The notes beneath the pieces were generated by a model, which had not been told where the DNA came from, searched no databases, and saw only the letters and a list, made by a program, of their open reading frames with translations. From positions 58,693-122,692 of the forward strand of contig JBBCJA010000012.1 in the NCBI GenBank assembly GCA_037189585.1: a DNA stretch of 64,000 nt, in the 5' to 3' direction. Origin of the DNA: Selenomonadaceae bacterium (GTDB lineage Bacteria; Vulcanimicrobiota; Xenobia; Xenobiales; JADMJV01). Below, one piece after another: positions 1 to 52,675 of the stretch (its first letter is position 1; each line of letters begins with the position of its first letter). The position numbers were made by a program, and so were the translations under genes.

Positions 1-356
1 CGGGTTCCGAGAAACTTGCGATGTCTATCGACCGAGCTGTCGAGAAACAAAGAGTTGTGACACATGAAATCTTGACTCAGCTGGTTCTGCCCTGAGGCGT
101 CGACGATGGTGGCCCGGTATCCGGTCAGCCACAAAAGCTCCCGCTCTTTGGAGTTGCCTAAAAAGACTCCCCTCTTGACCTCTCCAGGTCCTTCCATGGA
201 GGCGTACACACGGTCCATCAGATACTCGCCGCTAGTGTACTCCCAAAAGTGTGTCTCCGGCGACGGTTCACCGAACCTCGACGCCAGCGGCATTGCCAAA
301 CAGGCCAGGAACAGGACGAAGGTCGCCAGTCGATGACACGTCTTAAACTTCGCCAC
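1..356 (-). CDS. Partial ORF running off the left window edge. Hypothetical secreted protein. Its 5' end is a GTG start at about 354-356, 13 bp downstream of the HTTM-1 stop.
   Basis: The minus-strand frame has no stop from 356 to position 1. The N-terminus MAKFKTCHRLATFVLFLACLAMPLASRF looks like a signal peptide. The ORF is absent from the supplied track because it has no ATG start and is truncated by the window edge. Confidence 0.35.
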   Translation of the reverse strand, partial: MAKFKTCHRLATFVLFLACLAMPLASRFGEPSPETHFWEYTSGEYLMDRVYASMEGPGEVKRGVFLGNSKERELLWLTGYRATIVDASGQNQLSQDFMCHNSLFLDSSVDRHRKFLGT

Positions 357-369
357 GCGACGCTCCAAG

Positions 370-1893
370 CTAGTAAGACTCGGGCAACGGTGCCCTAAGA
401 ACGACGGCCCTCGCGTGGGGGTCGGAAACGGGAAACGGCCCTCTCCAGTCAGATTTCGGTGACACCGCCCAGGCGACCTCCACTTCGTGAGTCGGTTGGC
501 GCCCGGGCAACAACGAACTTTCCGTCCGCAAGCTCCAGAGCCTCACCAGAATGACTTTCTGGTCCGGATGGGCTTCTTCCCATTTGACCGCCTGTCTTCT
601 CAAATATCGCATGCTGATAGCTCGTCCTGCCGACCATTCCAAAGAGTTGAGATAGTTTCGCTCATGCTGATTTTTGAAATCTAGATAGGCCGGACTACTC
701 TGTTGAAAACTGAAGTCACGACCCTCTCGGCGAAGATCGATCCGCCGGCCGTCTTGCAGTCGGGCTTCCAAGAAGTATCGAGAATCCACCACCCGGGGGA
801 CCGGAGAGAACAGATCCCAAAACTGGACCAGCCGCAAGGCGGAAAAAAGTCGAATCGGCCAGGATTGAGCCAGGCGTCCCGAAGGGGGAACTCCCGATCC
901 GGAAAGCATGACTAGATTCCAGGCCAGCGTCCCCAAGATGGCGAGACTTGCCAGAGCGCCGGTGATGGCACGGGTCGTCCATGCCAAGCTAGTGGATAAG
1001 TCCCCACTCTCGGTACCGGACGCCCTCCGCTCCCATACCAATGAGGGAAGACATCCCACCAGCGAAACTATGGAGACGAGCGGAAACAGCTCCAGATCCA
1101 TGGTCAGTCCGATCCCGATATGAAGAATCGCCAGCGAAATGATCGCCACCAACCGACCGCGTGAGTTGCCGCTAAAGAGCAGAAGAACCGGCGCTATCCA
1201 TTCCAATACAAAGGTGGCCAAAGTCAACCACTTCAAGAATTCGGGGAAACCAGCCAACCAGTATCCTAGAGGTTTCGTGAACTGATGGAGTTCATAGGTG
1301 CGAAACAAAGCCGTGCGTTCGGTGATCCAGACAGGGTGAACTTTCCAGACCGCGGCCATAAGGTAGACCTGGCAGACCTGAAGCAGATAGCCTGTTCCCC
1401 CCAAACAGTTGATGCGATAGGAGGGGGATAGCCTTTGGCCACGCCGAGAATCCAAGGACCAGACCTCCCCCCAGGGCAAAAAGTTTCCCCAAAAAAGTAA
1501 AATGAGAAGAAGGCGGTCCGCGGAGTCTAGAACGAACGGGTTGCGATTGTGCAGGGACAAGGTGAGAAGGTAAGCCGCGAAAGTGGACCAGCGGGTCTGC
1601 CATCCTAGTACCAAAGCCGCAGCGAACGCGATGTGGACCACAAAGAGCAGGCTGACCTCGACAGGGAAACCGCTACTAAGATGCAGCGACCACCAGACAT
1701 CATTCCAATACTGGCTAGTTAGCAAAAAACGAGGTAAAACCCCGACATCACTGTAAAATTCGGTCAAGTCACGAGCCCGGTCCAACAGATCGACCAGTAA
1801 AAGAGCTCCGAGACAGATCCGGAACAGAGCTAGCGACCGCAGGTCCAGGTCAAGAATCCTCGTCAAAGCTTCGCCTCGGCGATCAGGCTCCAC
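370..1893 (-). CDS. HTTM-domain integral membrane protein (vitamin-K-dependent gamma-carboxylase / SdpB-like fold) with a C-terminal soluble domain
   Basis: The N-terminal ~270 aa carry HTTM hallmarks: DLRSLALFRI..G.LLLVD, LSLHNRNPFVLDSADRLLLILLFWGNFLPWGEVWSLD, and multiple TM helices. Confidence 0.7.
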   Translation of the reverse strand: MEPDRRGEALTRILDLDLRSLALFRICLGALLLVDLLDRARDLTEFYSDVGVLPRFLLTSQYWNDVWWSLHLSSGFPVEVSLLFVVHIAFAAALVLGWQTRWSTFAAYLLTLSLHNRNPFVLDSADRLLLILLFWGNFLPWGEVWSLDSRRGQRLSPSYRINCLGGTGYLLQVCQVYLMAAVWKVHPVWITERTALFRTYELHQFTKPLGYWLAGFPEFLKWLTLATFVLEWIAPVLLLFSGNSRGRLVAIISLAILHIGIGLTMDLELFPLVSIVSLVGCLPSLVWERRASGTESGDLSTSLAWTTRAITGALASLAILGTLAWNLVMLSGSGVPPSGRLAQSWPIRLFSALRLVQFWDLFSPVPRVVDSRYFLEARLQDGRRIDLRREGRDFSFQQSSPAYLDFKNQHERNYLNSLEWSAGRAISMRYLRRQAVKWEEAHPDQKVILVRLWSLRTESSLLPGRQPTHEVEVAWAVSPKSDWRGPFPVSDPHARAVVLRAPLPESY

Positions 1894-3248
1894 TCCGCGC
1901 TCGAGCTGGGTCCAGGCAGCCTGGTCTCCACCCGCGCCTGCCAGACTCTCACCAGAACCGCTCGATTCTCGGGGTGACGCCTATTCCACTGTCGCGCGGC
2001 CCACTCCGCGAAGCCTTGTCGAAAAGGACTGTCCACGGGAAGAGTGGGCAAATTCATCATATACTTCCGCCACCGGTCGTCCGGATAGGTCGCGGAAACA
2101 AGAGGCGGGCGTTCCGCACTCCAGGCCCGATCTCCGCGCCAAGCATCGTAGTCGCGACCATCCTGGGCCTGAACCTGGACCGTGAACCAGCCGTCCTCTT
2201 CCAACCCCGGACCCGCGAACACTCCGAAATACTGCAAACTAGAGAAGACTGGAGCGATCCTTAAGACGAGGTCTGGTAAAAAGACCTTGCGACCCTTCCC
2301 CAGAGATTCCAAATTCACCGCGCAAGTCAACAAGCACACCGAGAGAAGAGCCATCGCGAGCGGCCCACCAAGGTGTATTCGTGGTTGCGACCGACCGTCG
2401 GCCCCAAAAAATCTACCTGGCACCAAAGCCAAAAGTCCCACCAGCGGAACGTAACGAAAGACCCCTATCTCTAGAAACAGTCCAAAGGTCAGATGCAGGA
2501 TGGCCGCGGTGCTGATCGCTAAAATACGCGGACGAGGTGTCGGGAGTAGGATCGCGAGTCCGAGACACAGCTCCATTAACCACACGACGCGTGTCAACAC
2601 CGCGAGAGCCTCGGGATGGTCCGTCAACGGCACGGCCCAAGCCGTGGAGTGGTGGCCGATATTTAAAGCATAATAGATGGCGCTGCCCTCACTTAACCAG
2701 TAAGGATGGAGCTTGTGCAGCGCGGCGAAAAGGTATAGACAGGCCATCTGAAGCGACCAGCCGATAGTCGCGGCGGAGAGAACCGTTTCGTCGAGGTGGC
2801 CCTCCCCTGACCTGGCCTTACTGTCGACAGACCAGACCGCGCCCCAGGGCAGAAAGATGCCCCAAAAAAGTAAAGCGGCCATCAGGGTATCGCCACTGTT
2901 GAGAAGTAAAGGATTGCGTTGGTGCAAGCTGAGCAAGAGCAGCCAGGATAAAGCGCTGACGGTCCGTGTCCGATAGCCCAGCAAAAGAGCGCCGGCTAGA
3001 CACAGTTGAATGATCAGGAGTAGGCTCTGATAGGTCTCCAGGTCGTTGGCCAGGTGAAGCGATGGTAAGAGATAGCTCGTCTGCGCGCGCAGGAGGACGA
3101 GTCGACTACAAAAACCATCGTCGGAATAAAATTCGCGGCAAAAACTTAAACGTATCAAAAGGTCGCTCAAGAGTACACAAGCCATGGCCATCCGTGCCAC
3201 AGCCATGGACCGCAAGCTCATCCCGAACCAAAGAACAAACGTCGACAC
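1863..3248 (-). CDS. HTTM-domain integral membrane protein, tandem paralog of the downstream gene
   Basis: Same motif set as the downstream HTTM gene: LLLSLHQRNPLLLNSGDTLMAALLFWGIFLPWGAVWSVD. The two genes overlap by 31 bp. Confidence 0.7.
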   Translation of the reverse strand: MSTFVLWFGMSLRSMAVARMAMACVLLSDLLIRLSFCREFYSDDGFCSRLVLLRAQTSYLLPSLHLANDLETYQSLLLIIQLCLAGALLLGYRTRTVSALSWLLLLSLHQRNPLLLNSGDTLMAALLFWGIFLPWGAVWSVDSKARSGEGHLDETVLSAATIGWSLQMACLYLFAALHKLHPYWLSEGSAIYYALNIGHHSTAWAVPLTDHPEALAVLTRVVWLMELCLGLAILLPTPRPRILAISTAAILHLTFGLFLEIGVFRYVPLVGLLALVPGRFFGADGRSQPRIHLGGPLAMALLSVCLLTCAVNLESLGKGRKVFLPDLVLRIAPVFSSLQYFGVFAGPGLEEDGWFTVQVQAQDGRDYDAWRGDRAWSAERPPLVSATYPDDRWRKYMMNLPTLPVDSPFRQGFAEWAARQWNRRHPENRAVLVRVWQARVETRLPGPSSSAEWSLIAEAKL

Positions 3249-3342
3249 CGCGACAAGAATTTCGCCTGTCCCGAAGTGAATCCCCCAAAGGTTCCCAAGG
3301 TCTGTTGCCAGTCGAAATATTCCTTGCTAAGCTATATGCTGA

Positions 3343-3816
3343 GTGACTTGGTACAAACATCACGGTCGGCGGAGCAGTCGCGGCCACAATCTCCTAGAGA
3401 TGCTGGTGGCGACGATGATCTTCGCCACTGTCATGATTACGTTCGCCTCTGTATTTCAGTATATCGCGATCGCGACCGGACGTAATCGAACACGCCTGGT
3501 CGGTCAGTACATCGCCAAAGGTGTCGTGGAGAAGTGCGTCGCTGCCAAATTTGTCAACGTCAGAAACTTGGAATCCATTGATTGTGGAGGCCCCATGACA
3601 TATGCTCCAACGACCATGACGTTTCGCCGCGAGGGTAAGGAAGTCGTCACCGAATACCTAACTCAAGTCGACGTGGAACCGTTGTCTCACCCTGCCTTCA
3701 CCGCTGTGCAAGCCCTCACGGTGCGAGTGCGCGTTTCATGGCGGGACAAAAATCGAGACACCGATGCCACCATGCCGTATTGTGAGTATCGAACTTACAT
3801 AGGTCAGAATTCATGA
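3343..3816 (+). CDS. Prepilin-type N-terminal cleavage/methylation domain protein (type IV pilin/pseudopilin-like), GTG start
   Basis: Basic leader followed by G-HNLLEMLVATMIFATVMI. This is the class III signal motif G|xxxxE followed by a hydrophobic helix. Confidence 0.6.
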   Translation: MTWYKHHGRRSSRGHNLLEMLVATMIFATVMITFASVFQYIAIATGRNRTRLVGQYIAKGVVEKCVAAKFVNVRNLESIDCGGPMTYAPTTMTFRREGKEVVTEYLTQVDVEPLSHPAFTAVQALTVRVRVSWRDKNRDTDATMPYCEYRTYIGQNS

Positions 3817-4511
3817 AACGTCACCGAGCCTCGAGAGCGACCACCCTTCCGGAGCTTCTCGTGGTCATGGCCGTCATGGGCGTTCTCCTTTACTTAGCCC
3901 AACGCGCCGTCGTCGCCGGGTTTGAATTCTATCGATTCACCGACGAGTCGATCACCCTTCAACGAGAGGGCCTTACCGCCCTGAGCTATATCACGGAAGA
4001 CCTGTTGGCCACTCATCAACGAAGCGTGGTTGTCAAGGACGTCCCAGTGGCCAGTCCCACACCCAGCCACGACGAGGACGAGTTGGTTATCCCTCTGCCC
4101 CAAAAACTTGACGGAACCTCCGAGATCAACAACGATTCCGGCGCCGTCAAATGGATGTCTGTCGTGGGGTATAAAATCGACACGACCAGAGACGACCGCC
4201 CGCTGATGCGACATCATGGAGACTCTCAGTACGACCCCGACAACGACTTCAAAGACCCGATCAGCGGTGACTACATCACCGACATCGAGATCATTACCCC
4301 GCCGGAACTCAAGATGCCGACTGTCGATGACATCGCGGGCTTCCCCGACACCGGGCGTCGATCTCGTGTGGTCGCTCGTAACGTTTTCTCTCTCGCCGTG
4401 GTCCGCCGAACCGATACCATTGACGTGGAACTAACCATTTTCTTGCCCGGCCGCTTTGTTAATGCGGACAATTCGATAACACTGGAAACGACGATCTTTC
4501 CTCGAAACTAG
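3813..4511 (+). CDS. Pseudopilin-like protein with a prepilin-type N-terminal helix and Ala at the -1 position
   Basis: RASRATTLPELLVVMAVMGVLLYLA has the Glu at +5 and a hydrophobic helix. Its start overlaps the upstream stop by 4 bp (ATGA). Confidence 0.5.
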   Translation: MKRHRASRATTLPELLVVMAVMGVLLYLAQRAVVAGFEFYRFTDESITLQREGLTALSYITEDLLATHQRSVVVKDVPVASPTPSHDEDELVIPLPQKLDGTSEINNDSGAVKWMSVVGYKIDTTRDDRPLMRHHGDSQYDPDNDFKDPISGDYITDIEIITPPELKMPTVDDIAGFPDTGRRSRVVARNVFSLAVVRRTDTIDVELTIFLPGRFVNADNSITLETTIFPRN

Positions 4512-4523
4512 TAGGAGACCATT

Positions 4524-6353
4524 ATGCGCAACACATACGACGATAAAGACAAGAGGGGGTCCGCGTTGATTCTCGTCGTGTTCACTCTCTTCTTGGTCAC
4601 TCTGGTCGTGTCCGCGATCTTCGCTCTCTCGCGGCAGAATTTCCTGGGCGTCAATAAAGACTATCACGGGAACAAGGCCGAGTACGGAGCCAAGGCCGGC
4701 ATCGAGCACGCCATCGCTCTGCTGACCAACGATCCCACCGTGGGCACTCAGGCCGGCGGATTTGAGCTCAATGACGAGCCACTCGACGGCGAGCCTGATG
4801 TCACCTACAGTCTTCACATCATCACCAACGGCTCCCCCCCACCGACCATCGTGACCGCTCCTGACGGATTGGCTATCCCACCCAGGGTCGCCTGGGTCAA
4901 GTCGACCGGGGTACTGCGGGATCGCGCGAATTCGTCCAGCTCTTCCCTGGTCAAGCTCGTGGGCCTTCAGCGCCCGATTCTCAAACAGGGACTCTTCGGG
5001 ATCAACTTCGTGGAAGTCAGCGACAACAGCACCGTTCAGGGATACAACTTCGCTCTCTCCGGCGCGGCTCGCAAACTCGACCGGAGGGGAGACATCGGAG
5101 TCAACGCCACGACGTTGTTTCCCAACCTCCTTGCTCCATCTCCTTCTCCCTACCCGGGAGTGAATCGCAGCGGAGTCGTGGTCGATTCAAGCTCCTCCAT
5201 CAAGGGGCAGGTGCGCGTGGGGGTGGGAAGTCCCTCCATCGGAACGGTCGCTCAGATCGCTCCGGGCACTGTAGTCAATAACGAGGACCCCACCAATGCG
5301 ACAGTGATCTCGCAAGAAGCGACTCAGGTCCCTCGCTTCATGCTACCGAGCGATCCCGCGTTGTCGAACTACCGTTTCATTCACAATCTGGTCACCCGGG
5401 ATACTGCCGTGGCCCCACCCTCTCCAGGCCCCTCCGCTAGCCCTATGGCCACATCGACGCCAGGGGGAAATACCTGGCGCATAGGTCCCTGGATCGCATC
5501 GTCACCGACCCCCGTACCGGCCTTCAACATCGACAACACCACGACACCTCCGGCCGGCGCCCAGTTACCCGACCCCGATCCGGCCACCACGGGCTACAAC
5601 GACCTGAAGGTCATCGCGCCCGGACTCTATGATCTCAACGATGTCGGCGGGGAGTTGACTCTCGAGAACGTGGTTCTCCGTGCCGGAGCACGCTACGAAT
5701 TTCGCGGCAACGTGACCTTCAAGGGTAACGTCAACATCTCGAATGTCCGCGCAAACGGCACCTCCTGGGACGACCCGGGTACCCCCGAAATCGAGTCTGT
5801 TCCCGCGACCTGTCTCTATGTTGATGGCGACGTCAAGTTTGAACCGGGCTGTAAGGTCAACATGGATCGTCTCGATGAAGACTCCGATGGAGATTCGGCT
5901 GAACCGATAGCTCCTCGTAGATTGCAGATATACACCTCGACCGGCCTTGGCGAGGATCAGTCGATTAGCTCCCACAACATCTTGGTGGGTGACTCCACAC
6001 CATCGCCAAAAGCGGAAGTATCGTGCGTCCTGGTGGGCTCGGCGATGCGAGTGAGACTTCGCAACACCGACTTCTACGGAGGAATTCAAGCTCTGGAAGT
6101 CATGGCGACCAACCATACCAATATCTACTTCGACGTCGACCTCTGGGGACAGCCCCTGGAAGGGCTCGGACAGATGGCGGTCCTGCTCAACACCGTCCAG
6201 GTTTATAGTCCGCCCATCTTACCGGCCGCTCCCGCTCCGGCGGCACCGGCCAGCGGGCCGGCGACCTCTCCTACCTACACGACCTATACGACCGGACCTG
6301 GATGGTGCTCCCCCATCATTCCGCTCCCGCAATCGGTTCAATGCTACTACTAA
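4524..6353 (+). CDS. GspK/PilX-like large minor pseudopilin with a Pro/Thr-rich C-terminus
   Basis: The N-terminus KRGSALILVVFTLFLVTLVVSAIFALSRQ resembles GspK, which lacks E+5. There is a strong SD (AGGAG) 8 nt upstream. The protein is 609 aa. Confidence 0.5.
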   Translation: MRNTYDDKDKRGSALILVVFTLFLVTLVVSAIFALSRQNFLGVNKDYHGNKAEYGAKAGIEHAIALLTNDPTVGTQAGGFELNDEPLDGEPDVTYSLHIITNGSPPPTIVTAPDGLAIPPRVAWVKSTGVLRDRANSSSSSLVKLVGLQRPILKQGLFGINFVEVSDNSTVQGYNFALSGAARKLDRRGDIGVNATTLFPNLLAPSPSPYPGVNRSGVVVDSSSSIKGQVRVGVGSPSIGTVAQIAPGTVVNNEDPTNATVISQEATQVPRFMLPSDPALSNYRFIHNLVTRDTAVAPPSPGPSASPMATSTPGGNTWRIGPWIASSPTPVPAFNIDNTTTPPAGAQLPDPDPATTGYNDLKVIAPGLYDLNDVGGELTLENVVLRAGARYEFRGNVTFKGNVNISNVRANGTSWDDPGTPEIESVPATCLYVDGDVKFEPGCKVNMDRLDEDSDGDSAEPIAPRRLQIYTSTGLGEDQSISSHNILVGDSTPSPKAEVSCVLVGSAMRVRLRNTDFYGGIQALEVMATNHTNIYFDVDLWGQPLEGLGQMAVLLNTVQVYSPPILPAAPAPAAPASGPATSPTYTTYTTGPGWCSPIIPLPQSVQCYY

Positions 6354-6383
6354 TGTCTAATAGGTCGATATAGTCTACTCCAA

Positions 6384-6441
6384 CAAAAAAACTGGCCAGT
6401 TCACCGCAGTAAAGGAACTGGCCAGTTTTTTTATTATTATT
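6384..6441. terminator. Bidirectional rho-independent terminator between convergent genes
   Basis: A-run, then two copies of the 12-bp palindrome AACTGGCCAGTT (6390-6401 and 6416-6427) separated by a 14-nt loop, then TTTTTTTATTATTATTT. Read on the opposite strand the structure again ends in a U-tract. Confidence 0.6.
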
Positions 6442-7216
6442 TCGCGGTCTTTACCGGGGCCTTCTTAGGAGTCGCCGAGGAGGCGGGCGTCGCGGCGGCG
6501 TCAGGAACTCGAGCAAGCATTTGCTGGATATCGGTCGGAGTCACTTTCCGATAGACCTTGGGAGGTCGTTTTCTTCCGCCTCCCCACAGCAGCTTGTTTC
6601 CCTCCAAGGCAAATTTGTGGGGAAGTGAGCCAGCCATCGTCGCGCTGCCCATCGTTCCTACCAGAAAAAAGGCACTAGACGACTCTCGGGAGACTCTACC
6701 CCAGCAGCCGAGCCGGTTCAAGGACTTCTTCTCATCGAGTCGTTGGAACATACCGACAAAAGTACCCGCGGGAGTAAATTCCACCACCTCGGGCTCTCTG
6801 TCGTCAGAACGCCAAAGCCCATCCAGACGTTTATCGAACAGGTCGTTCGCGCTGCTCCTCCGCGCTTTCTCGAACCGGCGTTTGAAAGCTTTACCACCAT
6901 CAATGATGAGTTCACCGTCATCAAAGGAACATTTCCAGGTGGTTCGCGCTTTCGCGATGAGGCTCTCTAAACTGACCTCATTTCCTTTCACCGACCAGAC
7001 ACCCACATCGACCGGCTCTCCATTGGTAACCACGGCGTACAGTCGATTGGGTGTGAACTCCACTCGACGATCAACCTGGTCCTCGGACCACGTCCCGATC
7101 AGAGCCTGGTCCAAAGGGACTCGTCCGCATCCACTCGCCCACAGCATAGCCCAGCCTAACAACCCGACGAGAATGAGCCTAGTTCTCACGGGGTCTCGTT
7201 CGCTCAACCAATTCAC
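6437..7216 (-). CDS. Hypothetical lipoprotein
   Basis: Signal peptide with lipobox LWASGC. No recognisable catalytic motifs. It lies immediately downstream of the S9 peptidase gene, so an operon is likely. Confidence 0.5.
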   Translation of the reverse strand: MNWLSERDPVRTRLILVGLLGWAMLWASGCGRVPLDQALIGTWSEDQVDRRVEFTPNRLYAVVTNGEPVDVGVWSVKGNEVSLESLIAKARTTWKCSFDDGELIIDGGKAFKRRFEKARRSSANDLFDKRLDGLWRSDDREPEVVEFTPAGTFVGMFQRLDEKKSLNRLGCWGRVSRESSSAFFLVGTMGSATMAGSLPHKFALEGNKLLWGGGRKRPPKVYRKVTPTDIQQMLARVPDAAATPASSATPKKAPVKTAK

Positions 7217-9130
7217 TTACCTGTTCTCTCCACTATCAATGGCGCGGCTCCACAAAAAATCCACCGCCGCCACCTGGTCCACCAAGCGGGAACCCAAGGC
7301 TCCGTGGATTCCTAGCTCCTGCTGCTGTAGATAAACCTTGTCGGCCAGACCTAGTTCTTGCGCGCGTTCAAGAAAGCGCCAACTGTGCCGGGGGTCGACG
7401 ACCGGATCCTCGGAAGATGTCGTCAGTAAAATTGTCGGAACTTTCTTATCGCGGCTCAGAAGGTTCAAAGGAGAAAGCCTCTTGAGTCGCTCAAGTTGAA
7501 CGGGATCTTGAGGATCCCCGTATTCACTCAACCACAGTTTTCCAGGGACTCTCGTCGGATACCCGACGAGGTCCGTCAGCCCCGCCTCGGCCCAAACCGC
7601 GCGAAACAGATCTGGATAGCGCAAAGCGACTATCAGTCCCAGAGTGGCGCCACTACTTCGCCCACGATAGACAACGGCTCGCCCGCCAAGATGCTCGGTC
7701 GCTTCAATCAAGCCTGTCACGGCAAGGTCCTGACCGAGAGGAGGTGTCTCCAACTGTACGATCTCGACGGAGCCACCACGCCTGAGCCACTCAAGACGCA
7801 CAGCATCGTAGTAGGGAAGAAGTTTCTGTCGAAAGGCTCCGTAACTTTCTAGCATCACTGGAGAGTTAGCAACTGGCTCTATCGCGTCCAACTTGACCGT
7901 CTCGGCCCCTACGGAGATCTGAAATCGCCGCGGGTCAATCCCCTCCAGGGGCATTGAAATGACCTCTTGAATAGCACCGTCCTTGAGATCGAGTAGAGCG
8001 GTGCCGCGCGGTTGAAAAGGCCCCTCGAAGTCAAGAGAGACTTTTGACCCCCCGGCTGGCCGAAATCGTCGGCCCTGTCCTGGTGTGGCGGGGAGACTCG
8101 TTGAGTGAATTTCTCCTGACGTGAGGTTCAGGATGGAGAGATGATGCCCCCAGGAGCCGGGAGACAGGATAGCCAGCCGGTCTGACCATTGATAGACATA
8201 GTCGGCCAGGCCTAATCGTGACACCAGCCGCCCTCTCAGCGAGAGAGTTCCCGACTTGAGATCTAGCGACTCTCTAGGAAGCGCCAGAACCCGAGAACTA
8301 CTGGGTCCGTCGCGAACGACCGCATAGAGCGTGGTTTGGCTCCATCCCGTCAGGCGAACCTGGTTTTCCTTAAGAGCAAAGCTTTGCCAAGGCGTATCCG
8401 CACGCCGGTCCATCCGAACCCATCCCCGTGTATCTAACGGTGCGCTACGGTCATATATGATGAGACCCTCGGGCGACATCGGCGCTACGGCGAGCCTGGG
8501 GAACTCCGCATCGCTAGTGGCGACCGTCTTGGATGTGCCTCCGATTTGGCTTTCCAGAACCTGGATCCGGCCTGGAAACATTTCGGCATAGAGGATCCGT
8601 TTCTCGTCCAGCCAGGTCGGTGAGAAGTGAAATGCCGCTCGAGAGGATATCGGAGTCACCGCCCCCGTGGAAAGATCCCAAAGTTCCAAGACGGCTATCT
8701 CAAGCGTGTTTGAGACCGTCGGCTCTCGACGCGATACTAAACAACGCTCACCTTCAGGTGACAAGTTGAGGTCAAAGGGGGCAACAGAGAAAGGAGACGC
8801 ACGAAGTAACTTCGCCGAGGCGAGAGCTCCATGAGTACCGTGCCAAAACGAAACCCCGTCAGAATCTTGCCTGAGCCAGGCTACCTTATCACCTCGAACG
8901 CTCGAGCATAAAAGTTCCCGTGAGGGAAGAGGCGTTGTGTCATCAGCCGTCGCCCTAAAGCGCTCCACCTGGGCCTGTTTCCACGCGGTGTCGGCCTCAG
9001 GGTCTGAAAGTGACGGGCCCGCGGACTGGCACCCGAGAACGAACAGACCCAGGGTGGCGAGCCCCTTAAGACGCCGGGACAAAGTAAAAGGCTCCGCCTT
9101 TCGGACGGAGCCTTTTACTTTGTCCCCCAA
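7217..9130 (-). CDS. S9-family serine peptidase (prolyl oligopeptidase / acylaminoacyl-peptidase-like) with an N-terminal beta-propeller. Lipoprotein, TTG start.
   Basis: Lipobox LFVLGC. The C-terminal alpha/beta-hydrolase part carries the nucleophile elbow G-R-S-S-G-A, then SEDPVVDP and GIHG. Confidence 0.6.
   Translation of the reverse strand: MGDKVKGSVRKAEPFTLSRRLKGLATLGLFVLGCQSAGPSLSDPEADTAWKQAQVERFRATADDTTPLPSRELLCSSVRGDKVAWLRQDSDGVSFWHGTHGALASAKLLRASPFSVAPFDLNLSPEGERCLVSRREPTVSNTLEIAVLELWDLSTGAVTPISSRAAFHFSPTWLDEKRILYAEMFPGRIQVLESQIGGTSKTVATSDAEFPRLAVAPMSPEGLIIYDRSAPLDTRGWVRMDRRADTPWQSFALKENQVRLTGWSQTTLYAVVRDGPSSSRVLALPRESLDLKSGTLSLRGRLVSRLGLADYVYQWSDRLAILSPGSWGHHLSILNLTSGEIHSTSLPATPGQGRRFRPAGGSKVSLDFEGPFQPRGTALLDLKDGAIQEVISMPLEGIDPRRFQISVGAETVKLDAIEPVANSPVMLESYGAFRQKLLPYYDAVRLEWLRRGGSVEIVQLETPPLGQDLAVTGLIEATEHLGGRAVVYRGRSSGATLGLIVALRYPDLFRAVWAEAGLTDLVGYPTRVPGKLWLSEYGDPQDPVQLERLKRLSPLNLLSRDKKVPTILLTTSSEDPVVDPRHSWRFLERAQELGLADKVYLQQQELGIHGALGSRLVDQVAAVDFLWSRAIDSGENR
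9077..9125. other. Perfect 20-bp inverted repeat (stem-loop) between the stop of the 9155..9568 gene and codons 2-18 of the peptidase gene
   Basis: GGACAAAGTAAAAGGCTCCG cctttcg CGGAGCCTTTTACTTTGTCC. Confidence 0.5.
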
Positions 9131-18813: not shown

Positions 18814-20436
18814 CTAGGGAGACGCGGCGCGCGACAGGTCAGGCGTTGCCTGGGGCCACGGACGTAGCAGTATCCAGTGGCCAATCTCCTGGTGGGTCCA
18901 GGCTGGGTTGGCGTAAGTTCCATAGTCGGATCTCCTCACAACGATCAAAGTGGATGGGTCCGCTCGGCGAGAGGCGAAATAAGCGGAGAGGTCGGGATAC
19001 AAAAAATCTTGGTAATCTTCGGGGTTCTGGAACCAGGTTTCGCGAGGATAGGAGACCTGAACCAGACGCCGTCCCAGGTAGTAGGGCAACCCGTGGAGAT
19101 GGTCGGCCACCTCCACAATCTCGCCCACAGGGCATTCTCGCTGAATGGTCTGAGCTAGACGACGGGCGCTGTAGGCTCCGTCACAGAGGCCCAAGGAGGA
19201 GGCCAGCAAGAGAAGCCCCGCCGCCCAACTACAGGCAGGCCATGCGAACCAGACCAACGCCCCGGTTCGTGAGCGAAAGGCCAGAGCAGCAAGACATGAC
19301 ATCCCCAGCAGAGCGGCCAGAGCGCTCAAGTGGTGGTAGGCTGGCTGAAGCTCGGGGGCAACACCGATGACCAGGTAGACCGAAAGAGCTAAGGTGAAGA
19401 GCGCCAGGGTGAAAAGCGCGGTCGTTCCTAGTGCGCGCAGCCGCCGCGGCTCTTGTCGCGCCGTCAGCAAAGCCAGCGCCGGGAAGATCGGCAGAAGATA
19501 GGTGGGCAGCTTAGAGCCGGCGCAAGAGAAGAAGAGCACGGGAACGATCAGCCAGAGAAGCAAGAATCGGTCGAGCTCGTTTCTTCTCTTCCAGGCCGCC
19601 GCCAGCGTGAGCGGTAGCCCGGTGGACCAAGGGAAGAACCCGGCGGCCAACACCGGAAGGTAGAACCACCATGCTCCCGGCCTTCCGTGCACCGTGGTCA
19701 GCATGCGTTGAGTCGTTTGAAAACGGAGAAAATAGTCCAGTAGACCCTCGTGCTGGAGGCAGACGATGACGTACCAGGGTAGCGCGAGGGCTAAGAACAA
19801 GGGGAGGCCGAGCCTCGGTCGCAGATTCCAAGAGAGCTTGCCCTGCATGCTCAGATGAAAGAGAGCAAGGACCGGTAGAACGATGACCAAACCTATCGGA
19901 CCTTTGACCATGAAGCCCGCTGCGAGAGAGAGCCAGAATCCCAGCCAGAATTTCCCTTCCGGGTGGTTCCTGGAGCGCCAGGCGCAGTAGAGGGCCGAAG
20001 TGACCGCCGCGGTCAAGAACATGTCGGTCAGCACCAGGCGGGAGAGGAACCAGAATTCGAGCGAGGTGACCAAGACCAGCACCGCGCGGCAGGCCTGCCC
20101 GCGACCTCCCTCTTGGGCAGCCCAGTACCAAGTCAGCCCCACGGTCCAAAGAGCCGCCAGCGCTACCGGAAGCCGCCCCGCCCATTCCGAGGTGCCCAAC
20201 AGCTTCAGGGAGCCTCCCACCAACCAGAACGTTCCCGGCGGCTTATGAAAGTGATCGATGAAGTTCAAACGAGGGGTCAGCCAATCGCCGCTTTGGGCCA
20301 TCTCCCAAGAGATCTCGAAAAAGCGGGCCTCGTTGTCCTCGAGCAGACCGTACGAGCCGAGTCCGAACAGGAGCAAGAGAAGCGATAGCGCCGCCACGGC
20401 GAGGGTGGGAAGATGAAAGCCGGGTCCTCTTCTCAA
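18814..20436 (-). CDS. ArnT/PMT-like GT83 glycosyltransferase (undecaprenyl-phosphate-sugar:lipid A/glycan transferase-like), copy 2
   Basis: An 11-13-TM protein with the periplasmic-loop motif EARFFEISWEMAQSGDWLTPRLNFIDHFHKPP. Confidence 0.7.
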   Translation of the reverse strand: MRRGPGFHLPTLAVAALSLLLLLFGLGSYGLLEDNEARFFEISWEMAQSGDWLTPRLNFIDHFHKPPGTFWLVGGSLKLLGTSEWAGRLPVALAALWTVGLTWYWAAQEGGRGQACRAVLVLVTSLEFWFLSRLVLTDMFLTAAVTSALYCAWRSRNHPEGKFWLGFWLSLAAGFMVKGPIGLVIVLPVLALFHLSMQGKLSWNLRPRLGLPLFLALALPWYVIVCLQHEGLLDYFLRFQTTQRMLTTVHGRPGAWWFYLPVLAAGFFPWSTGLPLTLAAAWKRRNELDRFLLLWLIVPVLFFSCAGSKLPTYLLPIFPALALLTARQEPRRLRALGTTALFTLALFTLALSVYLVIGVAPELQPAYHHLSALAALLGMSCLAALAFRSRTGALVWFAWPACSWAAGLLLLASSLGLCDGAYSARRLAQTIQRECPVGEIVEVADHLHGLPYYLGRRLVQVSYPRETWFQNPEDYQDFLYPDLSAYFASRRADPSTLIVVRRSDYGTYANPAWTHQEIGHWILLRPWPQATPDLSRAASP

Positions 20437-22100
20437 CGGGTATCCCCTCGACGATGGTACAGAAGGGCCCAGCGAGCGTCGCGGAAGACGACCGTCTCGC
20501 CGAGCTGGCTGGCCAGGGAGTCCGCCAAGGGAAGGGGGACGATGAGAAAACGATCCTTATCCCCTTTTTGAAAGGTAGGCAGATAAGTCGGTAGGTCTGG
20601 GGACAAGAGTGCTCGGAAGTCGTCGTTGTCCTCAAATTGGGTCTCTCGCGGGTCTCCGATGTGGATGATGTTCTGTCGCGTGTAGTAAGGAAGGCCGAAA
20701 AGGTAGCCGTCCCACATTCCGATCTCGTAGGGTCCCTGGCTATGCTGACGGATGGACTCGACTATGGGGAGAGCGCTGTTATGACGAAGCTTAGGCAGGC
20801 CGGGCAGAGCGATAGCCACGACCCCCAACATGGCCACCACGGGGGCTATCAAGACCGCCTCCTGGCCGCCTCTGATCCAAAGGACCAGACCGACCAGAGA
20901 GACCACGGCAAGCCAGGCCGCCGCGGTGGCGAGCTCGTGGGAGTAGGTCAGAACTTTTGGGGAAAGAGACCAGCGAGTTAGGGTTGCGCAAGCCAGGGAG
21001 AGCAAGGTCAGAGCCCCCAGAGGATAGGCCCGGGCGCGGGGGGACATGGCCGCGAATTGACGGGACACCAAGAGGGCCAAGGCGGGAAAGAGAGGCAGCA
21101 CGTAGGTGGGGAGCTTCGAGCCCATCATCGAGAAGAAGAGGGTGGGTCCGACAATCCAGGCCAAAAGTAGCGCGTCGGGACTCAACTCGCCTTTTCGGAT
21201 AAGACCCACGGCACGGCGTATCGAGCCGGGAAGCCAGACCGACCAGGGAAGAAAGCCGCCCAGCAGCACCGGCAGGTAGAACCAGGGAGGGCCTGTTCTT
21301 TCGTGGACGGTGGTGAACACCCGGTCAGCGGTCTGAAACTTGAGAAGATAGGACAGCAGTCCCGGATTTTGGGACACGATCCAGAGGTACCACGGCAGTC
21401 CAATGGCGGCGGCCAGAACCAGTCCCGGTCCCGGCGCGAGAACCCGCCAGGACACCTTGGCTAGGAGCATAGTGGGAAGCAGGGCCATGGCCACGATCAA
21501 GGGGCCCACCGGGCCTTTGGCGAGAAAATTCAGACCCAGAGCGGCCCAGAAAATCACAAGGCTTATTCGATCCGGACCTTCACTGAGCACCTTCCAGGCC
21601 ACGGCGAGCGAAACCGTCACCAAGAACGTGACCAGCATGTCGGTCACCGCCACTCGACCCATCTCCCAGAAGAAGGGAGAGGTGGAAAGACAGGCCGGAA
21701 CGAGCCAGGGGTGTGAGCAGCCCATCTCCGGGCGCTTGGCCCACCAGCCGACAACCGCGAGGGTAGCCAAGGCCGCCAGGGCGCAGGGAAGACGGGCCGC
21801 TTCCTCACTCTCCCCCAAGATCCCCATGCTGCCGGCGGTCAGCCAGTAGAAAAGAGGCGGTTTATGAAGATGCTTGATGCCGTTGTAGCGTGGGGTCAGG
21901 TAGTCTCCGGAGCGCAGCATCTCCCAGGCCACACCGGCGTAGCGGGCCTCGCTTCGCTCGGTCAGAGGATAGGAATTGAGGCCCGCCAGATAGGCCCAAA
22001 CCACCAGGCCGGCAAAAGGGAGAAAAGCGGCTCTATGTCCCTGTGACCACACCGACCCGAGTCTAGAATTTTCGATGTGAAACAAAGATGAGAAATTCAT
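20433..22100 (-). CDS. ArnT/PMT-like GT83 glycosyltransferase, copy 1
   Basis: EARYAGVAWEMLRSGDYLTPRYNGIKHLHKPPLFYW. It overlaps copy 2 by 4 bp. Confidence 0.7.
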   Translation of the reverse strand: MNFSSLFHIENSRLGSVWSQGHRAAFLPFAGLVVWAYLAGLNSYPLTERSEARYAGVAWEMLRSGDYLTPRYNGIKHLHKPPLFYWLTAGSMGILGESEEAARLPCALAALATLAVVGWWAKRPEMGCSHPWLVPACLSTSPFFWEMGRVAVTDMLVTFLVTVSLAVAWKVLSEGPDRISLVIFWAALGLNFLAKGPVGPLIVAMALLPTMLLAKVSWRVLAPGPGLVLAAAIGLPWYLWIVSQNPGLLSYLLKFQTADRVFTTVHERTGPPWFYLPVLLGGFLPWSVWLPGSIRRAVGLIRKGELSPDALLLAWIVGPTLFFSMMGSKLPTYVLPLFPALALLVSRQFAAMSPRARAYPLGALTLLSLACATLTRWSLSPKVLTYSHELATAAAWLAVVSLVGLVLWIRGGQEAVLIAPVVAMLGVVAIALPGLPKLRHNSALPIVESIRQHSQGPYEIGMWDGYLFGLPYYTRQNIIHIGDPRETQFEDNDDFRALLSPDLPTYLPTFQKGDKDRFLIVPLPLADSLASQLGETVVFRDARWALLYHRRGDTR

Positions 22101-22128
22101 GAGAGACTTCTCATAGAGAACTCCCCCG

Positions 22129-23271: not shown

Positions 23272-23277
23272 CCTGGC

Positions 23278-23333
23278 GAGCCTACCAGAGGTTTCTTACC
23301 GCGAACTTTCGCCACCATTACCGGGCTGTAATT
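23278..23333. repeat. Dispersed intergenic repeat unit (copy C) between the PiT and porin genes
   Basis: GAGCCTACCAGAGGTTTCTTACCGCGAACTTTCGCCACCATTACCGGGCTGTAATTC. Confidence 0.6.
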
Positions 23334-23346
23334 CAAAATGCGGCGA

Positions 23347-24411: not shown

Positions 24412-25021
24412 ACTTCACCACAAGCGTCTCGAGCGTGAGGAAGAAATCCTCACAACGATCCAAGAGGCTTTCCATGCGCTCATATAGCTCTTTCCATTTG
24501 AGGAGCTCATAGATCTCGACTCGCTCTTCGAACATTCGTCCGATGGCGCGCCGGCAAAGTTCATCCGAACGCTGCTCACAATTTTTGACCGTTTCCCGGT
24601 ACTCTGCGACGGATGCTCCAGTCTGTAAGCAGCTCAGCGCGCTCCCCAAGGCGGTGATGGCCGTCTTGGCAAGTTTGAGCATCTCCAGAGCATCTTCAGG
24701 CGCTTTCTCAACTCGGAAATAGATCGCGCGGTGAGCCGAGCCGTGGAGAGCATCCAGCACACCATCGAGTCCGGAAGCGAGTTTATGAATGTCTTCTCGG
24801 TCTAAAGGGGTGATAAAAGCATTGGCGAGCTTGAGATTGAGATCAACGATGAGTTGATCCCCTTTGGACTCTAAGCCTGAGATGGTCGCGGCGTCAGCTT
24901 CCGTGATGGGAAGATGACCGAAGAGTCGTAGAAGTTCGTCGGCGGCTTGATTGGCCAAATTTGCGAGTTCATGGAAGACTGAATAGAAAGCGTCCTGCTT
25001 TCTCAAAACTTTATAGATCAC
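24404..25021 (-). CDS. DUF47 (TIGR00153) PhoU-like phosphate-transport regulator partner of PiT
   Basis: 205-aa all-helical protein immediately upstream of PiT, overlapping it by 8 bp. This is the typical PiT-associated gene pair. Confidence 0.65.
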   Translation of the reverse strand: MIYKVLRKQDAFYSVFHELANLANQAADELLRLFGHLPITEADAATISGLESKGDQLIVDLNLKLANAFITPLDREDIHKLASGLDGVLDALHGSAHRAIYFRVEKAPEDALEMLKLAKTAITALGSALSCLQTGASVAEYRETVKNCEQRSDELCRRAIGRMFEERVEIYELLKWKELYERMESLLDRCEDFFLTLETLVVKYA

Positions 25022-52558: not shown

Positions 52559-52675
52559 TTACCCTCGCTTTTGAGAGAGAACCTTTGGAGGCTCTTTGTT
52601 ATATTTAAGCGGAAACTCCTAAGGATCCTGCGAATCTCGGAGGATCTCCCAGAGGGTTCCGAAAAAAACTTTGAC

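What the first reader, a model, noticed from the sequence alone, without database searches (positions are those of the whole stretch)
1..6353. Tandem HTTM-domain paralogs followed by a signal-peptide protein and facing a divergent pseudopilin trio
Two adjacent, overlapping HTTM membrane proteins each carry the extra C-terminal soluble domain (370..1893 and 1863..3248). HTTM is the vitamin-K gamma-carboxylase / SdpB fold used for post-translational modification of secreted peptides. Immediately downstream, an unannotated minus-strand ORF that runs off the window encodes a protein with a signal peptide. This mirrors the sdpB-sdpC logic of a modifying enzyme followed by a secreted substrate. On the other side, three prepilin-like genes are transcribed divergently (3343..6353). 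Together this looks like a possible secreted-protein maturation and export module.
Basis: inference. Interest (0 to 1): 0.5.

Follow-up and report, generated by a model that had tools for sequence, protein, structure and literature searches.

The report
Carboxylase-like membrane pair with secreted copper-enzyme-like protein
The "secreted substrate" next to two vitamin-K-carboxylase-like membrane proteins is a 376-residue protein with the fold of the animal peptide-amidating copper enzyme PHM; it belongs to a large unannotated bacterial family that is fused to such a membrane protein in one distant lineage, so this looks like an undescribed multi-enzyme module, not a toxin-maturation pair.

Summary
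All the reported ORFs exist. Two overlapping paralogous HTTM genes lie on the minus strand. Downstream is a signal-peptide ORF that runs off the window. Three prepilin-like genes are transcribed divergently.

HTTM-B models onto human gamma-glutamyl carboxylase over nearly its whole length. It keeps the catalytic Lys218 equivalent.

A sulfatase-family lipoprotein with Thr, not Cys/Ser, at the nucleophile position follows.

HTTM and the PHM-like protein are neighbours across rearrangements in a Xenobia-like clade. In a distant metagenomic contig the same parts recur, differently fused (HTTM–PHM-like fusion, a second HTTM, a free soluble domain). Across the wider family the link is rare (2 of 80 genomes).

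I read this as a periplasm-facing oxidative protein-modification complex. The substrate, copper binding and the pseudopilins' role are unproven.

The parts
1..356 (-). 5' part (118 of 376 codons) of the gene for the secreted PHM/DBH-fold protein. It starts at GTG 356 and runs off the left edge. The full gene is L001:11538-12668.
282..356 (-). Predicted Sec signal peptide (aa 1-25, MAKFKTCHRLATFVLFLACLAMPLA). The public gene call starts at ATG 293 and cuts it off.
   Evidence: Read directly from the sequence. GGAG lies 6 nt before the GTG. A hydrophobic N-terminus is present in all complete homologs. No signal-peptide predictor was available.
57..62 (-). Codons for Cys99-His100 (Cys78-His79 in P0001 numbering), invariant in 150 of 150 family representatives.
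370..1893 (-). HTTM-B, a GGCX-like polytopic membrane protein with a C-terminal soluble alpha/beta domain (507 aa).
1342..1344 (-). Lys184 of HTTM-B, aligned to the GGCX catalytic base Lys218. Trp189 aligns to Trp223.
   Evidence: hhalign at 95.8% probability, E 8e-9. The GGCX fragment was verified against PDB chains. Codon checked. Role of Lys218: PMC13187478.
373..891 (-). C-terminal part of HTTM-B (aa about 335-507): the last TM-proximal helices plus the soluble alpha/beta domain (strands 369-379, 447-458, 468-477; helices 409-441). It has no Pfam match.
   Evidence: A stand-alone 135-aa homolog exists in L095.
1863..3248 (-). HTTM-A, paralog of HTTM-B (461 aa from the longest ORF; the public call gives 447 aa from window position 3206). 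The Lys218-equivalent, Lys179, is at 2712..2714.
   Evidence: Pfam HTTM 35.3 bits, above the gathering score. Paralogy. Lys position.
3343..3816 (+). Pseudopilin-like protein 1 (157 aa, weakly GspI-like), RG|HNLLEMLVA.
3813..4511 (+). Pseudopilin-like protein 2 (232 aa), RA|TTLPELLVVMAV. The prepilin N-terminal methylation domain is just above the NCBIfam cut-off.
4524..6353 (+). Pseudopilin-like protein 3 (609 aa, GspK/PilX-like N-terminus KRG|SALILVV without Glu5, Pro/Thr-rich C-terminus).
   Evidence: No family hit.
6437..9130 (-). Conserved neighbours: an S9-family peptidase (7217..9130) and a 259-aa putative lipoprotein (6437..7216), convergent on the pseudopilin trio. It is uncertain whether they belong to the module.
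   Evidence: The same neighbours are present in L091 and L092.

Best explanation
The locus is a four-gene minus-strand operon, of which the window shows the first two and a third genes. The order is HTTM-A, HTTM-B, a Sec-exported PHM/DBH-fold protein, and a sulfatase-family lipoprotein.

Proposed mechanism.
1. The two paralogous HTTM proteins are GGCX-type polytopic membrane enzymes. Their active site, with the conserved Lys that in GGCX deprotonates vitamin K hydroquinone, faces the periplasmic side. This step is shown at the level of sequence and fold.
2. The exported PHM-like protein docks on them as a second catalytic subunit. In a distant lineage it is covalently fused to the HTTM membrane domain, in place of the HTTM C-terminal soluble domain. 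The fusion and synteny are shown; the physical complex is inferred.
3. The PHM-like protein binds copper through His-x-His...Met in its C-terminal jelly-roll. It hydroxylates a C-H bond of an exported protein or peptide. Its unusual invariant Cys-His site replaces the His-His electron-entry site of PHM. This step is inferred from fold, residue pattern and spacing.
4. The HTTM pair either activates or matures the PHM-like protein (for example at its clade-specific acidic [DE][DE]xC tail), or acts with it on the same exported substrate, using menaquinol and O2. This step is inference.

The substrate is unknown. The downstream protein is a partner enzyme, not an SdpC-like substrate peptide.
For: Operon anatomy. 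There is a 31-nt overlap, a 13-nt gap and a 1-nt gap between the four genes.

PHM-like protein.
- AF2 model pLDDT 88.
- Foldseek: the top 30 PDB hits are all PHM or DBH, E 7e-9 to 4e-7.
- The family has 1,143 representatives at E<=1e-3 and no Pfam model.
- Conservation over 150 representatives: Cys78 150, His79 150, His243 149, His245 150, Met313 146, His238 148, His211 144.
- The HxH-to-Met spacing is 68 residues, against 70 in PHM (His242/244 to Met314). The PHM sequence was verified.
- Fusion partners point to protein substrates and redox chemistry: cyclophilin in 13 of 118, FKBP in 1, AhpC/Redoxin in 1.

HTTM proteins.
- GGCX is the only PDB fold match with E <= 0.01.
- Lys184 aligns to Lys218.
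- The Lys is also kept in HTTM-A and in the fusion protein.

Linkage.
- The HTTM pair and the PHM-like gene are adjacent in L001, L002/3/4 and L011.
- In the rearranged L010, one HTTM gene lies divergent to the PHM-like gene and a second sits next to the sulfatase gene.
- In a myxobacterial locus (L015), HTTM, a Ser/Thr kinase and the PHM-like gene lie on one strand.
- In L095, an HTTM-PHM-like fusion of 676 aa is a continuous ORF on a 19.6-kb contig. It is followed by a stand-alone copy of the HTTM soluble domain and a second, TM-only HTTM.
Against: - No sequence-level homology to PHM could be shown. hhalign against a 109-sequence PHM alignment gives probability below 1%. No family member hits Pfam Cu2_monooxygen.
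- I could not superpose coordinates, so the equivalence of the conserved His and Met residues with the CuM ligands is unverified.
- The PHM CuH triad is not conserved as such. His-His is Cys-His, and the third His (His151) is present in only 87 of 150 representatives.
- The window's protein lacks His294, which 140 of 150 representatives have.
- Across the wider family HTTM is not the usual neighbour. It occurs in only 2 of 80 species-representative loci; a Ser/Thr kinase is the commonest neighbour, in 16 of 80.
- HTTM-B orthologs in L091 and L092 are followed directly by the sulfatase-like gene, with no PHM-like gene in between.
- HTTM homologs of the same architecture at 34-35% identity stand alone.
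- The synteny evidence within the Xenobia-like clade is phylogenetically non-independent.
- The GGCX Glu-binding residue His160 does not appear to be conserved.
Confidence: 0.5

Rival explanations
1. SdpB/SdpC-type logic. The HTTM proteins process a small secreted toxin or peptide encoded immediately downstream.
For: HTTM-A gives a weak hit to the SdpB family model (45 bits). The downstream ORF has a signal peptide.
Against: The SdpB score is far below the family cut-off of 178.4. No SdpA or SdpC is present. The downstream product is a 376-aa, two-domain, confidently folded PHM/DBH-like protein from a family of more than 1,100 representatives that mostly occurs without HTTM.
Confidence: 0.03
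2. The PHM-like protein is chiefly a substrate, or client, of the HTTM pair. The GGCX-like enzymes carboxylate or otherwise modify its clade-specific acidic C-terminal tail ([DE][DE]-x-Cys-[GAS]). The protein may or may not be an enzyme itself.
For: - The tail is present in all 13 members of the HTTM-linked clade, including the second paralog in L002.
- Only 3 of the other 126 short-tailed representatives have it.
- Among the 90 loci analysed, the strict motif occurs only in the 6 that also carry HTTM; the seventh HTTM locus, L015, lacks it.
- The tail is disordered in the model (pLDDT 41-55).
- GGCX and MloH carboxylate Glu and Asp residues of protein or peptide substrates (PMC12647623; preprint 10.64898/2026.08.19.745780).
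Against: The correlation is effectively one evolutionary event in one clade. L009 has the tail, but no HTTM lies in the 8 kb available. The HTTM-PHM-like fusion protein and L015 lack the tail. No propeptide-like recognition element has been identified.
Confidence: 0.15
3. The true partner of the HTTM pair is the sulfatase-family lipoprotein. The HTTM proteins would act as an LMF1-like maturation factor or co-enzyme for an exported alkaline-phosphatase-superfamily hydrolase or transferase. The PHM-like gene would be an independent insertion into the operon.
For: - HTTM-B and the sulfatase-like gene are directly adjacent or overlapping in L091, L092 and L010.
- The best Pfam hit of HTTM-B is LMF1, though below cut-off.
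- A sulfatase-TPR gene lies near a distant PHM-like gene in L007.
Against: - The HTTM-PHM-like fusion locus L095 and the L015 locus contain no sulfatase-like gene.
- L002 and L003 have HTTM-A, HTTM-B and PHM-like genes but no sulfatase-like gene in the cluster.
- A sulfatase-like gene lies within 6 kb of the PHM-like gene in only 1 of 80 genome loci.
- The two readings are not mutually exclusive.
Confidence: 0.17
4. The PHM-like protein is not a copper monooxygenase. It would be a PNGase-F-like or other double-jelly-roll binding or sensor domain, for example a periplasmic ligand sensor working with Ser/Thr kinases. Its position next to HTTM would then have no redox meaning.
Confidence: 0.15

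Closest known systems
[quoted passage not shown]
   Same: Both are HTTM polytopic membrane domains followed by a soluble domain on the extracytoplasmic side. GGCX is the only PDB fold match with E <= 0.01. The profile match is 95.8%. The catalytic base Lys218 and Trp223 are conserved (role of Lys218 from PMC13187478). GGCX-like enzymes are reported to be widespread in bacteria (PMC12647623).
   Different: Here there are two paralogs in tandem. The soluble domain is much smaller than the three GGCX luminal subdomains. The Glu-binding residue His160 appears not to be conserved. No Gla-type substrate with a propeptide is evident. The partner is a PHM-fold protein, which has not been reported for GGCX or MloH.
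Peptidylglycine alpha-hydroxylating monooxygenase (PHM) and dopamine beta-hydroxylase
   Same: Both have the two-jelly-roll catalytic-core fold. Both are located in the secretory or extracytoplasmic compartment. Both have a conserved His-x-His ... Met pattern with nearly the same spacing (68 vs 70 residues).
   Different: There is no detectable sequence homology. The electron-entry His-His motif is an invariant Cys-His, and the third His is variable. Additional conserved His residues are present (211, 238). The protein is bacterial, and ascorbate is not expected to be the reductant. Fusions occur to PPIases, HTTM, VanZ and redoxin.
SdpABC (SdpB is an HTTM protein needed for SdpC toxin maturation in Bacillus)
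   Same: An HTTM membrane protein is encoded next to a signal-peptide protein.
   Different: The SdpB family score is far below cut-off. There is no SdpA. The neighbour is a 376-aa enzyme-like protein, not a toxin precursor of about 200 aa.
HTTM-DUF5819 two-gene complex (preprint 10.64898/2026.08.19.745780)
   Same: A bacterial HTTM protein works with a separately encoded or fused soluble domain that occupies the position of the GGCX luminal domain. In L095 the soluble domain of our HTTM type is likewise a separate gene.
   Different: Our soluble domain gives no Pfam hit, DUF5819 included. Our proteins have no DCC domain. A PHM-like component is not part of that system.
Cytochrome b561 plus PHM/DBH in secretory vesicles (from my own knowledge)
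   Same: A membrane protein supports a lumenal copper monooxygenase. This is a functional analogy for the idea that the HTTM pair services the PHM-like protein.
   Different: The membrane proteins are unrelated (haem b561 versus the quinone-binding HTTM fold). Electron supply by HTTM is speculation.
GspI/GspJ/GspK or PilV/W/X minor (pseudo)pilin sets
   Same: There are three consecutive genes with class-III-signal-like N-termini. The third is large and lacks Glu5, as GspK does.
   Different: No GspG/GspH-like major pseudopilin, ATPase, platform protein, secretin or prepilin peptidase is found in the 64-kb window. Family-model scores are at or below cut-off.

Membership tests
HTTM / GGCX-like (Pfam PF05090) | Match to the HTTM profile above the gathering score | tested here: met
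   HTTM-A scores 35.3 bits against 27.7. HTTM-B itself scores below threshold (only LMF1, 21 bits). It is 31% identical to HTTM-A, and its orthologs carry PF05090.
HTTM / GGCX-like (Pfam PF05090) | GGCX-type fold (multi-pass TM domain plus extracytoplasmic domain) | tested here: met
   The HTTM-B model has pLDDT 91. Foldseek hits 1-16 are all human GGCX (the top 14 at E 4e-8 to 5e-7), with 485-552 aligned columns. The next hit has E above 1.
HTTM / GGCX-like (Pfam PF05090) | Catalytic base Lys218 (deprotonates vitamin K hydroquinone) | tested here: met
   Lys184 (HTTM-B) aligns to Lys218 and Trp189 to Trp223 in hhalign at 95.8% probability. Lys179 is in the same motif in HTTM-A.
HTTM / GGCX-like (Pfam PF05090) | Glu-substrate and quinone-binding residues (Asn159/His160, His287/Asn290) | tested here: inconclusive
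   In one search, His160 falls next to a gap and aligns to Ala125. A conserved His258 lies one column off His287. The alignment is not reliable at this resolution.
HTTM / GGCX-like (Pfam PF05090) | Vitamin K (menaquinol)- and O2-dependent carboxylation activity | not testable with these tools
   This needs biochemistry.
SdpB family (TIGR04033) / SdpABC system | Score above the family cut-off, with SdpA and SdpC neighbours | tested here: not met
   The score is 45 bits against a cut-off of 178.4. The neighbours are a PHM-fold protein and a sulfatase-family lipoprotein.
Copper type II ascorbate-dependent monooxygenases (PHM/DBH; Pfam PF01082 + PF03712) | Sequence match to the family profiles | tested here: not met
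   The query has no hit at E<=1, and neither Cu2_monooxygen model is among the 25 families listed for the 118 members scanned. hhalign against a 109-sequence PHM alignment gives probability below 1%.
Copper type II ascorbate-dependent monooxygenases (PHM/DBH; Pfam PF01082 + PF03712) | Two-domain jelly-roll catalytic-core fold | tested here: met
Copper type II ascorbate-dependent monooxygenases (PHM/DBH; Pfam PF01082 + PF03712) | CuM site His-x-His ... Met | tested here: inconclusive
   His243-x-His245 and Met313 are conserved in 149, 150 and 146 of 150 representatives. The spacing is 68 residues against 70 in PHM. No coordinates were available to confirm that these residues occupy the CuM position.
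Copper type II ascorbate-dependent monooxygenases (PHM/DBH; Pfam PF01082 + PF03712) | CuH site His-His ... His | tested here: not met
   The candidate motif is an invariant Cys-His, not His-His. The candidate third ligand His151 is present in only 87 of 150 representatives.
Copper type II ascorbate-dependent monooxygenases (PHM/DBH; Pfam PF01082 + PF03712) | Copper binding and reductant-dependent hydroxylase activity | not testable with these tools
   This needs metal analysis and enzymology.
Type IV pilin-like / T2SS pseudopilins | Class III signal: short basic leader, Gly/Ala at -1, Glu at +5, hydrophobic helix | tested here: met
   The motif is read directly in ORFs 1 and 2. ORF 3 lacks Glu5, as GspK does. 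The motifs are conserved in L002 orthologs. TIGR02532 is above cut-off only for ORF 2.
Type IV pilin-like / T2SS pseudopilins | Associated assembly machinery (ATPase, platform protein, secretin, prepilin peptidase) | tested here: not met
   None is found among the 33 window ORFs scanned (essentially all long ones). The rest of the genome was not available.
Formylglycine-dependent sulfatases (within Pfam PF00884) | Pfam Sulfatase domain | tested here: met
   143.9 bits.
Formylglycine-dependent sulfatases (within Pfam PF00884) | Cys/Ser-x-Pro-x-Arg motif at the nucleophile position | tested here: not met
   The motif is SPW-T-K-P-S-V in the window's protein. Thr is present in all four orthologs and relatives aligned. 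This suggests a Thr-nucleophile phosphotransferase or phosphodiesterase-type member of the alkaline phosphatase superfamily.

The most novel reading that the evidence does not exclude
Two GGCX-type (vitamin-K-enzyme-fold) membrane proteins and a periplasmic PHM-fold copper protein form one complex, and this complex performs a previously unknown oxidative post-translational modification in bacteria. In the strongest version, the quinol-using HTTM pair activates the copper enzyme or supplies it with electrons. Its electron-entry site has been rebuilt around an invariant Cys-His. That would be an ascorbate-independent bacterial counterpart of the cytochrome b561/PHM system. Alternatively, the HTTM pair carboxylates the acidic Cys-containing tail of the PHM-like protein.
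Probability: 0.2. Interest if true: 0.85.

Novelty: new variant of a known kind. Interest (0 to 1): 0.6.

Why it matters
Bacterial HTTM/GGCX-like proteins are widespread. Apart from MloH and SdpB, their substrates and partners are unknown.

PHM and DBH are regarded as animal and eukaryote enzymes that depend on ascorbate. This locus brings two things to light:
- A large bacterial family with the PHM fold (about 1,100 cluster representatives across many phyla). It has a distinctive invariant Cys-His / His-x-His / Met residue set, no Pfam model, and no paper that I could find.
- Genomic and gene-fusion evidence that in some lineages this family works together with GGCX-like membrane enzymes.

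If confirmed, this would give an experimentally tractable bacterial system for two enzyme classes of medical importance. It would also point to a new extracytoplasmic protein modification. The frequent fusions to prolyl isomerases and the pairing with Ser/Thr kinases elsewhere in the family suggest protein substrates and possibly signalling roles.

Tried and rejected
1. Sequence searches of the downstream protein against Pfam, NCBIfam and PDB sequences gave nothing. Only fold comparison identified it.
2. Profile-profile alignment to PHM was not significant. I tried a single verified sequence and then a 109-sequence alignment. I therefore do not claim residue-level equivalence of the copper ligands. 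The low-confidence alignments disagreed about which His residues align.
3. I considered whether the PHM-like protein could be a novel formylglycine-generating enzyme for the co-transcribed sulfatase. Supporting hints were FGE-sulfatase genes downstream in 4 Nitrospinota loci and the proline in the sulfatase motif combined with PPIase fusions. I rejected this for the present locus, because the sulfatase-like protein has Thr, not Cys/Ser, at the nucleophile position.
4. Pfam scans of the isolated HTTM C-terminal domains and of the free L095 domain gave no hit, DUF5819 included.
5. PDB sequence searches with HTTM-A and with the HTTM profile missed GGCX. hhalign and Foldseek found it.
6. The lookup of the 100%-identical NCBI protein P0016 (on a 303-kb contig) failed. 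The source genome beyond L001 could not be examined.
7. The AFDB fold library was unavailable.
8. The promoter and terminator scan of 1..7400 gave nothing above the shuffled expectation.
9. The search for T2SS/T4P machinery in the window was negative.

Full report
**Observation**

- HTTM-A is at 1863..3248(-), 461 aa. HTTM-B is at 370..1893(-), 507 aa. They overlap by 31 nt.
- They are paralogs over their full length, including the C-terminal part (31% identity, E 1e-48).
- HTTM-A passes the Pfam HTTM gathering score (35.3 vs 27.7 bits).
- HTTM-B hits only LMF1 and DUF3556, below cut-off. Its orthologs carry PF05090.

Thirteen nucleotides after the HTTM-B stop, a minus-strand ORF starts at GTG 356, with GGAG 6 nt upstream. 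It runs off the window after 118 codons. Its N-terminus, MAKFKTCHRLATFVLFLACLAMPLA|SR, has the layout of a Sec signal peptide.

The three plus-strand ORFs (3343..6353) have prepilin-type N-termini: RG|HNLLEMLVA, RA|TTLPELLVV and KRG|SALILVV. The third lacks Glu5, as GspK does. The motifs are conserved in orthologs. Family-model support is marginal.

**Extending the locus**

The exact HTTM-B protein is encoded on a 25.7-kb public assembly contig (L001). This contig continues past the window's left edge.
- The downstream gene is 376 codons from the GTG. The public gene call starts 21 codons later and removes the signal peptide.
- One nucleotide after it comes a 751-aa sulfatase-family protein (Pfam PF00884, 143.9 bits). 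It has a lipoprotein signal (…ILVSGC).
- Genes on the opposite strand follow (YkuD, IF3).

The unit is therefore a four-gene operon: HTTM-A, HTTM-B, the exported protein, and the sulfatase-like lipoprotein.

At the position of the formylglycine Cys/Ser, the sulfatase-like protein has Thr (SPW-T-K-P-S-V). The same is true in three relatives. It is therefore not a formylglycine sulfatase. It is more likely a Thr-nucleophile member of the alkaline phosphatase superfamily.

**What the downstream protein is**

Sequence searches against Pfam, NCBIfam and PDB sequences found nothing. The word-indexed protein search found only 15 relatives. They share:
- a hydrophobic N-terminus;
- the invariant residues Cys99-His100, His172, His232, His259, His264-x-His266 and Met334, in full-length numbering.

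An AF2 model built on these sequences is confident (pLDDT 88, pTM 0.88) and all-beta.
- Foldseek against the PDB returns PHM and human dopamine beta-hydroxylase as the top 30 hits (E 7e-9 to 4e-7). Viral double-jelly-roll capsid proteins follow only from E 2e-5.

An exhaustive profile search of 1.84 billion cluster representatives finds 1,143 relatives at E<=1e-3, and 468 at E<=1e-30. The protein therefore belongs to a sizeable family with no Pfam model.

Conservation over 150 diverse representatives, in P0001 numbering (add 21 for full length):

| Residue | Conserved in (of 150) |
|---|---|
| Cys78 | 150 |
| His79 | 150 |
| His245 | 150 |
| His243 | 149 |
| His238 | 148 |
| Met313 | 146 |
| His211 | 144 |
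| His294 | 140 (absent from the window's protein) |
| His151 | 87 |

The His-x-His to Met spacing is 68 residues. It is 70 in PHM, from His242/244 to Met314 (PHM sequence verified against PDB chains).

The fold and the residue chemistry point to a PHM-like copper protein with a CuM-like site. The other site appears remodelled: an invariant Cys-His stands where PHM has His-His.

I could not establish sequence homology to PHM (hhalign probability below 1%). I also had no coordinates to superpose. The ligand equivalence is therefore an inference.

**The HTTM proteins**

- The AF2 model of HTTM-B (pLDDT 91) matches only human GGCX structures in the PDB with E <= 0.01 (16 chains; the top 14 at E 4e-8 to 5e-7). 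The aligned length is 485-552 columns, essentially the whole protein.
- A 37-sequence profile aligns to GGCX residues 63-308 at 95.8% probability. The GGCX fragment was verified.
- In that alignment, Lys184 falls on Lys218 and Trp189 on Trp223. [quoted passage not shown]
- HTTM-A has the same motif, with Lys179.
- The C-terminal alpha/beta domain has no Pfam match. It is conserved between the paralogs and among the many bacterial HTTM proteins of about 500 aa.
- The SdpB family model scores 45 bits against a cut-off of 178.

**Is the neighbourhood meaningful?**

The closest species-representative genome is a Candidatus Xenobia MAG (phylum Vulcanimicrobiota), at 52% identity.

Within this clade the genes stay together through rearrangements:

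| Locus | Arrangement |
|---|---|
| L002 / L003 | HTTM-A, HTTM-B, two tandem PHM-like paralogs |
| L011 | HTTM-A, HTTM-B, a divergent PHM-like ORF, PHM-like |
| L010 | one HTTM overlapping the sulfatase-like gene; a second HTTM divergent from the PHM-like gene |
| L091 / L092 | HTTM-A, HTTM-B, then the sulfatase-like gene directly; L091 also has a third HTTM-like gene |

Two findings outside the clade are decisive.
- **L015.** In this Nannocystaceae locus, an HTTM gene, a Ser/Thr kinase and the PHM-like gene lie on one strand.
- **L095.** This 19.6-kb metagenomic contig encodes a continuous 676-aa fusion of an HTTM membrane domain (Lys conserved) with the PHM-like domain (33% identical to ours, E 8e-54). 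After it come a 135-aa stand-alone homolog of the HTTM soluble domain (E 3e-7 in a 7-sequence search, signature QxWxMF.P.P) and a second, TM-only HTTM.

L095 therefore contains the same parts list as the window: two HTTM membrane domains, the soluble domain, and one PHM-like domain. The parts are cut and joined differently. This is the classic signature of subunits of one complex.

**Limits of the association**

- Among 80 species-representative loci of the PHM-like family, only L011 and L015 have HTTM within 6 kb.
- The commonest neighbour is a Ser/Thr kinase immediately downstream, in 16 of 80 loci. FGE-sulfatase-domain genes follow in 4 loci.
- Among 118 representatives, fusions are to cyclophilin (13), FKBP (1), AhpC/Redoxin (1), GDSL lipase (1), VanZ (1) and HTTM (1).
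- More distant HTTM proteins of the same architecture, such as the one in Verrucomicrobium spinosum, stand alone.

HTTM is thus one of several alternative partners of the PHM-like family. The PPIase fusions suggest protein substrates.

**A clade-specific tail**

All PHM-like proteins of the HTTM-linked clade end in a disordered acidic tail with the motif [DE][DE]-x-Cys-[GAS].
- Only 3 of the other 126 short-tailed representatives have it.
- Among the 90 loci analysed, the strict motif occurs only in the 6 that also carry HTTM. The seventh HTTM locus, L015, lacks it.
- This is essentially one evolutionary event.

GGCX and MloH act on Glu and Asp.

**Pseudopilins**

The trio lies divergent to the HTTM pair, and is convergent with a lipoprotein and an S9 peptidase. 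This arrangement is conserved in L001, L002, L091 and L092. In the rearranged L010, three pseudopilin-like ORFs lie downstream of an HTTM gene on the same strand.

None of the 33 window ORFs scanned (essentially all long ones) is a pilus or T2SS ATPase, platform protein, secretin or prepilin peptidase. A functional link is possible but undemonstrated.

**Conclusion**

The SdpB/SdpC interpretation is not supported. The best reading is a periplasm-facing module of two GGCX-like, quinone-type membrane enzymes with an exported PHM-fold, probably copper-dependent, partner enzyme. A Thr-nucleophile sulfatase-family lipoprotein is co-transcribed.

My confidence, by claim:
- The fold assignments are secure: about 0.9.
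- The functional HTTM/PHM-like link is likely: about 0.6-0.7.
- Copper monooxygenase chemistry is plausible: about 0.5.
- The substrate and the direction of the interaction are unknown.

Literature searches found no description of a bacterial PHM-fold family or of an HTTM/PHM pairing. The searchable library is incomplete, so this absence is weak evidence.

Noticed in passing
L011-L090 (PHM-like family loci), e.g. L053:7096-8127, L017, L046, L014, L022: In 16 of 80 species-representative genomes, a Ser/Thr protein kinase gene lies immediately downstream of the PHM-like gene on the same strand, or overlaps it. This is the commonest neighbour of the family and hints at a signalling role.
   Followed up: partly
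L023, L026, L030, L037 (Nitrospinota), e.g. L037:6997-7656: An FGE-sulfatase (SUMF1-like) domain gene sits 10 nt downstream of the PHM-like gene in four Nitrospinota genomes.
   Followed up: partly
P0139, P0140, P0143, P0159, P0160, P0163 and others (family representatives): 13 of 118 PHM-like representatives are fused to cyclophilin. One each is fused to FKBP, AhpC/Redoxin, GDSL lipase and VanZ. In L005/L006 a VanZ gene overlaps the start of a PHM-like-cyclophilin fusion.
   Followed up: partly
window 293..356 and 3343..3400; L001 gene calls: The public gene calls start the PHM-like gene at ATG 293 and the first pseudopilin gene 19 codons late. In both cases this cuts off the signal sequence. 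Annotation pipelines would therefore miss that both proteins are exported.
   Followed up: yes
L002:11125-12240; L011:2974-3843; L091:10800-11825: Related genomes carry extra copies of the parts. L002 has a second full PHM-like paralog. L011 has a divergent 290-aa PHM-like ORF (E 2.5e-9). L091 has a third HTTM-like gene on the opposite strand (E 1.2e-14).
   Followed up: partly
L001:12670-13570 (N-terminal ~300 aa of the sulfatase-like lipoprotein; left of the window): The sulfatase-family protein has a conserved N-terminal region of about 300 aa with no Pfam match. This region is shared by the L010, L091 and L092 orthologs but not by the L007 relative.
   Followed up: no
window 52571..54064 (+) and 54262..55647 (+): Two long ORFs (497 and 461 aa) have no Pfam match at E<=1e-4.
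   Followed up: no
window 18814..25021 (-): Two tandem PMT_2-type glycosyltransferase paralogs (540 and 555 aa) lie next to a phosphate cluster (Porin_O_P, PHO4 transporter, PhoU-like).
   Followed up: no
window 43058..51432 (-): A complete-looking chemosensory cluster: CheB, a CheA-like hybrid kinase with receiver domain, CheR, CheW, a CHASE3-HAMP MCP, and a hybrid histidine kinase.
   Followed up: no
window 59971..61515 (+): A 514-aa protein with a C-terminal HNH endonuclease domain and an otherwise unannotated N-terminal 400 aa.
   Followed up: no
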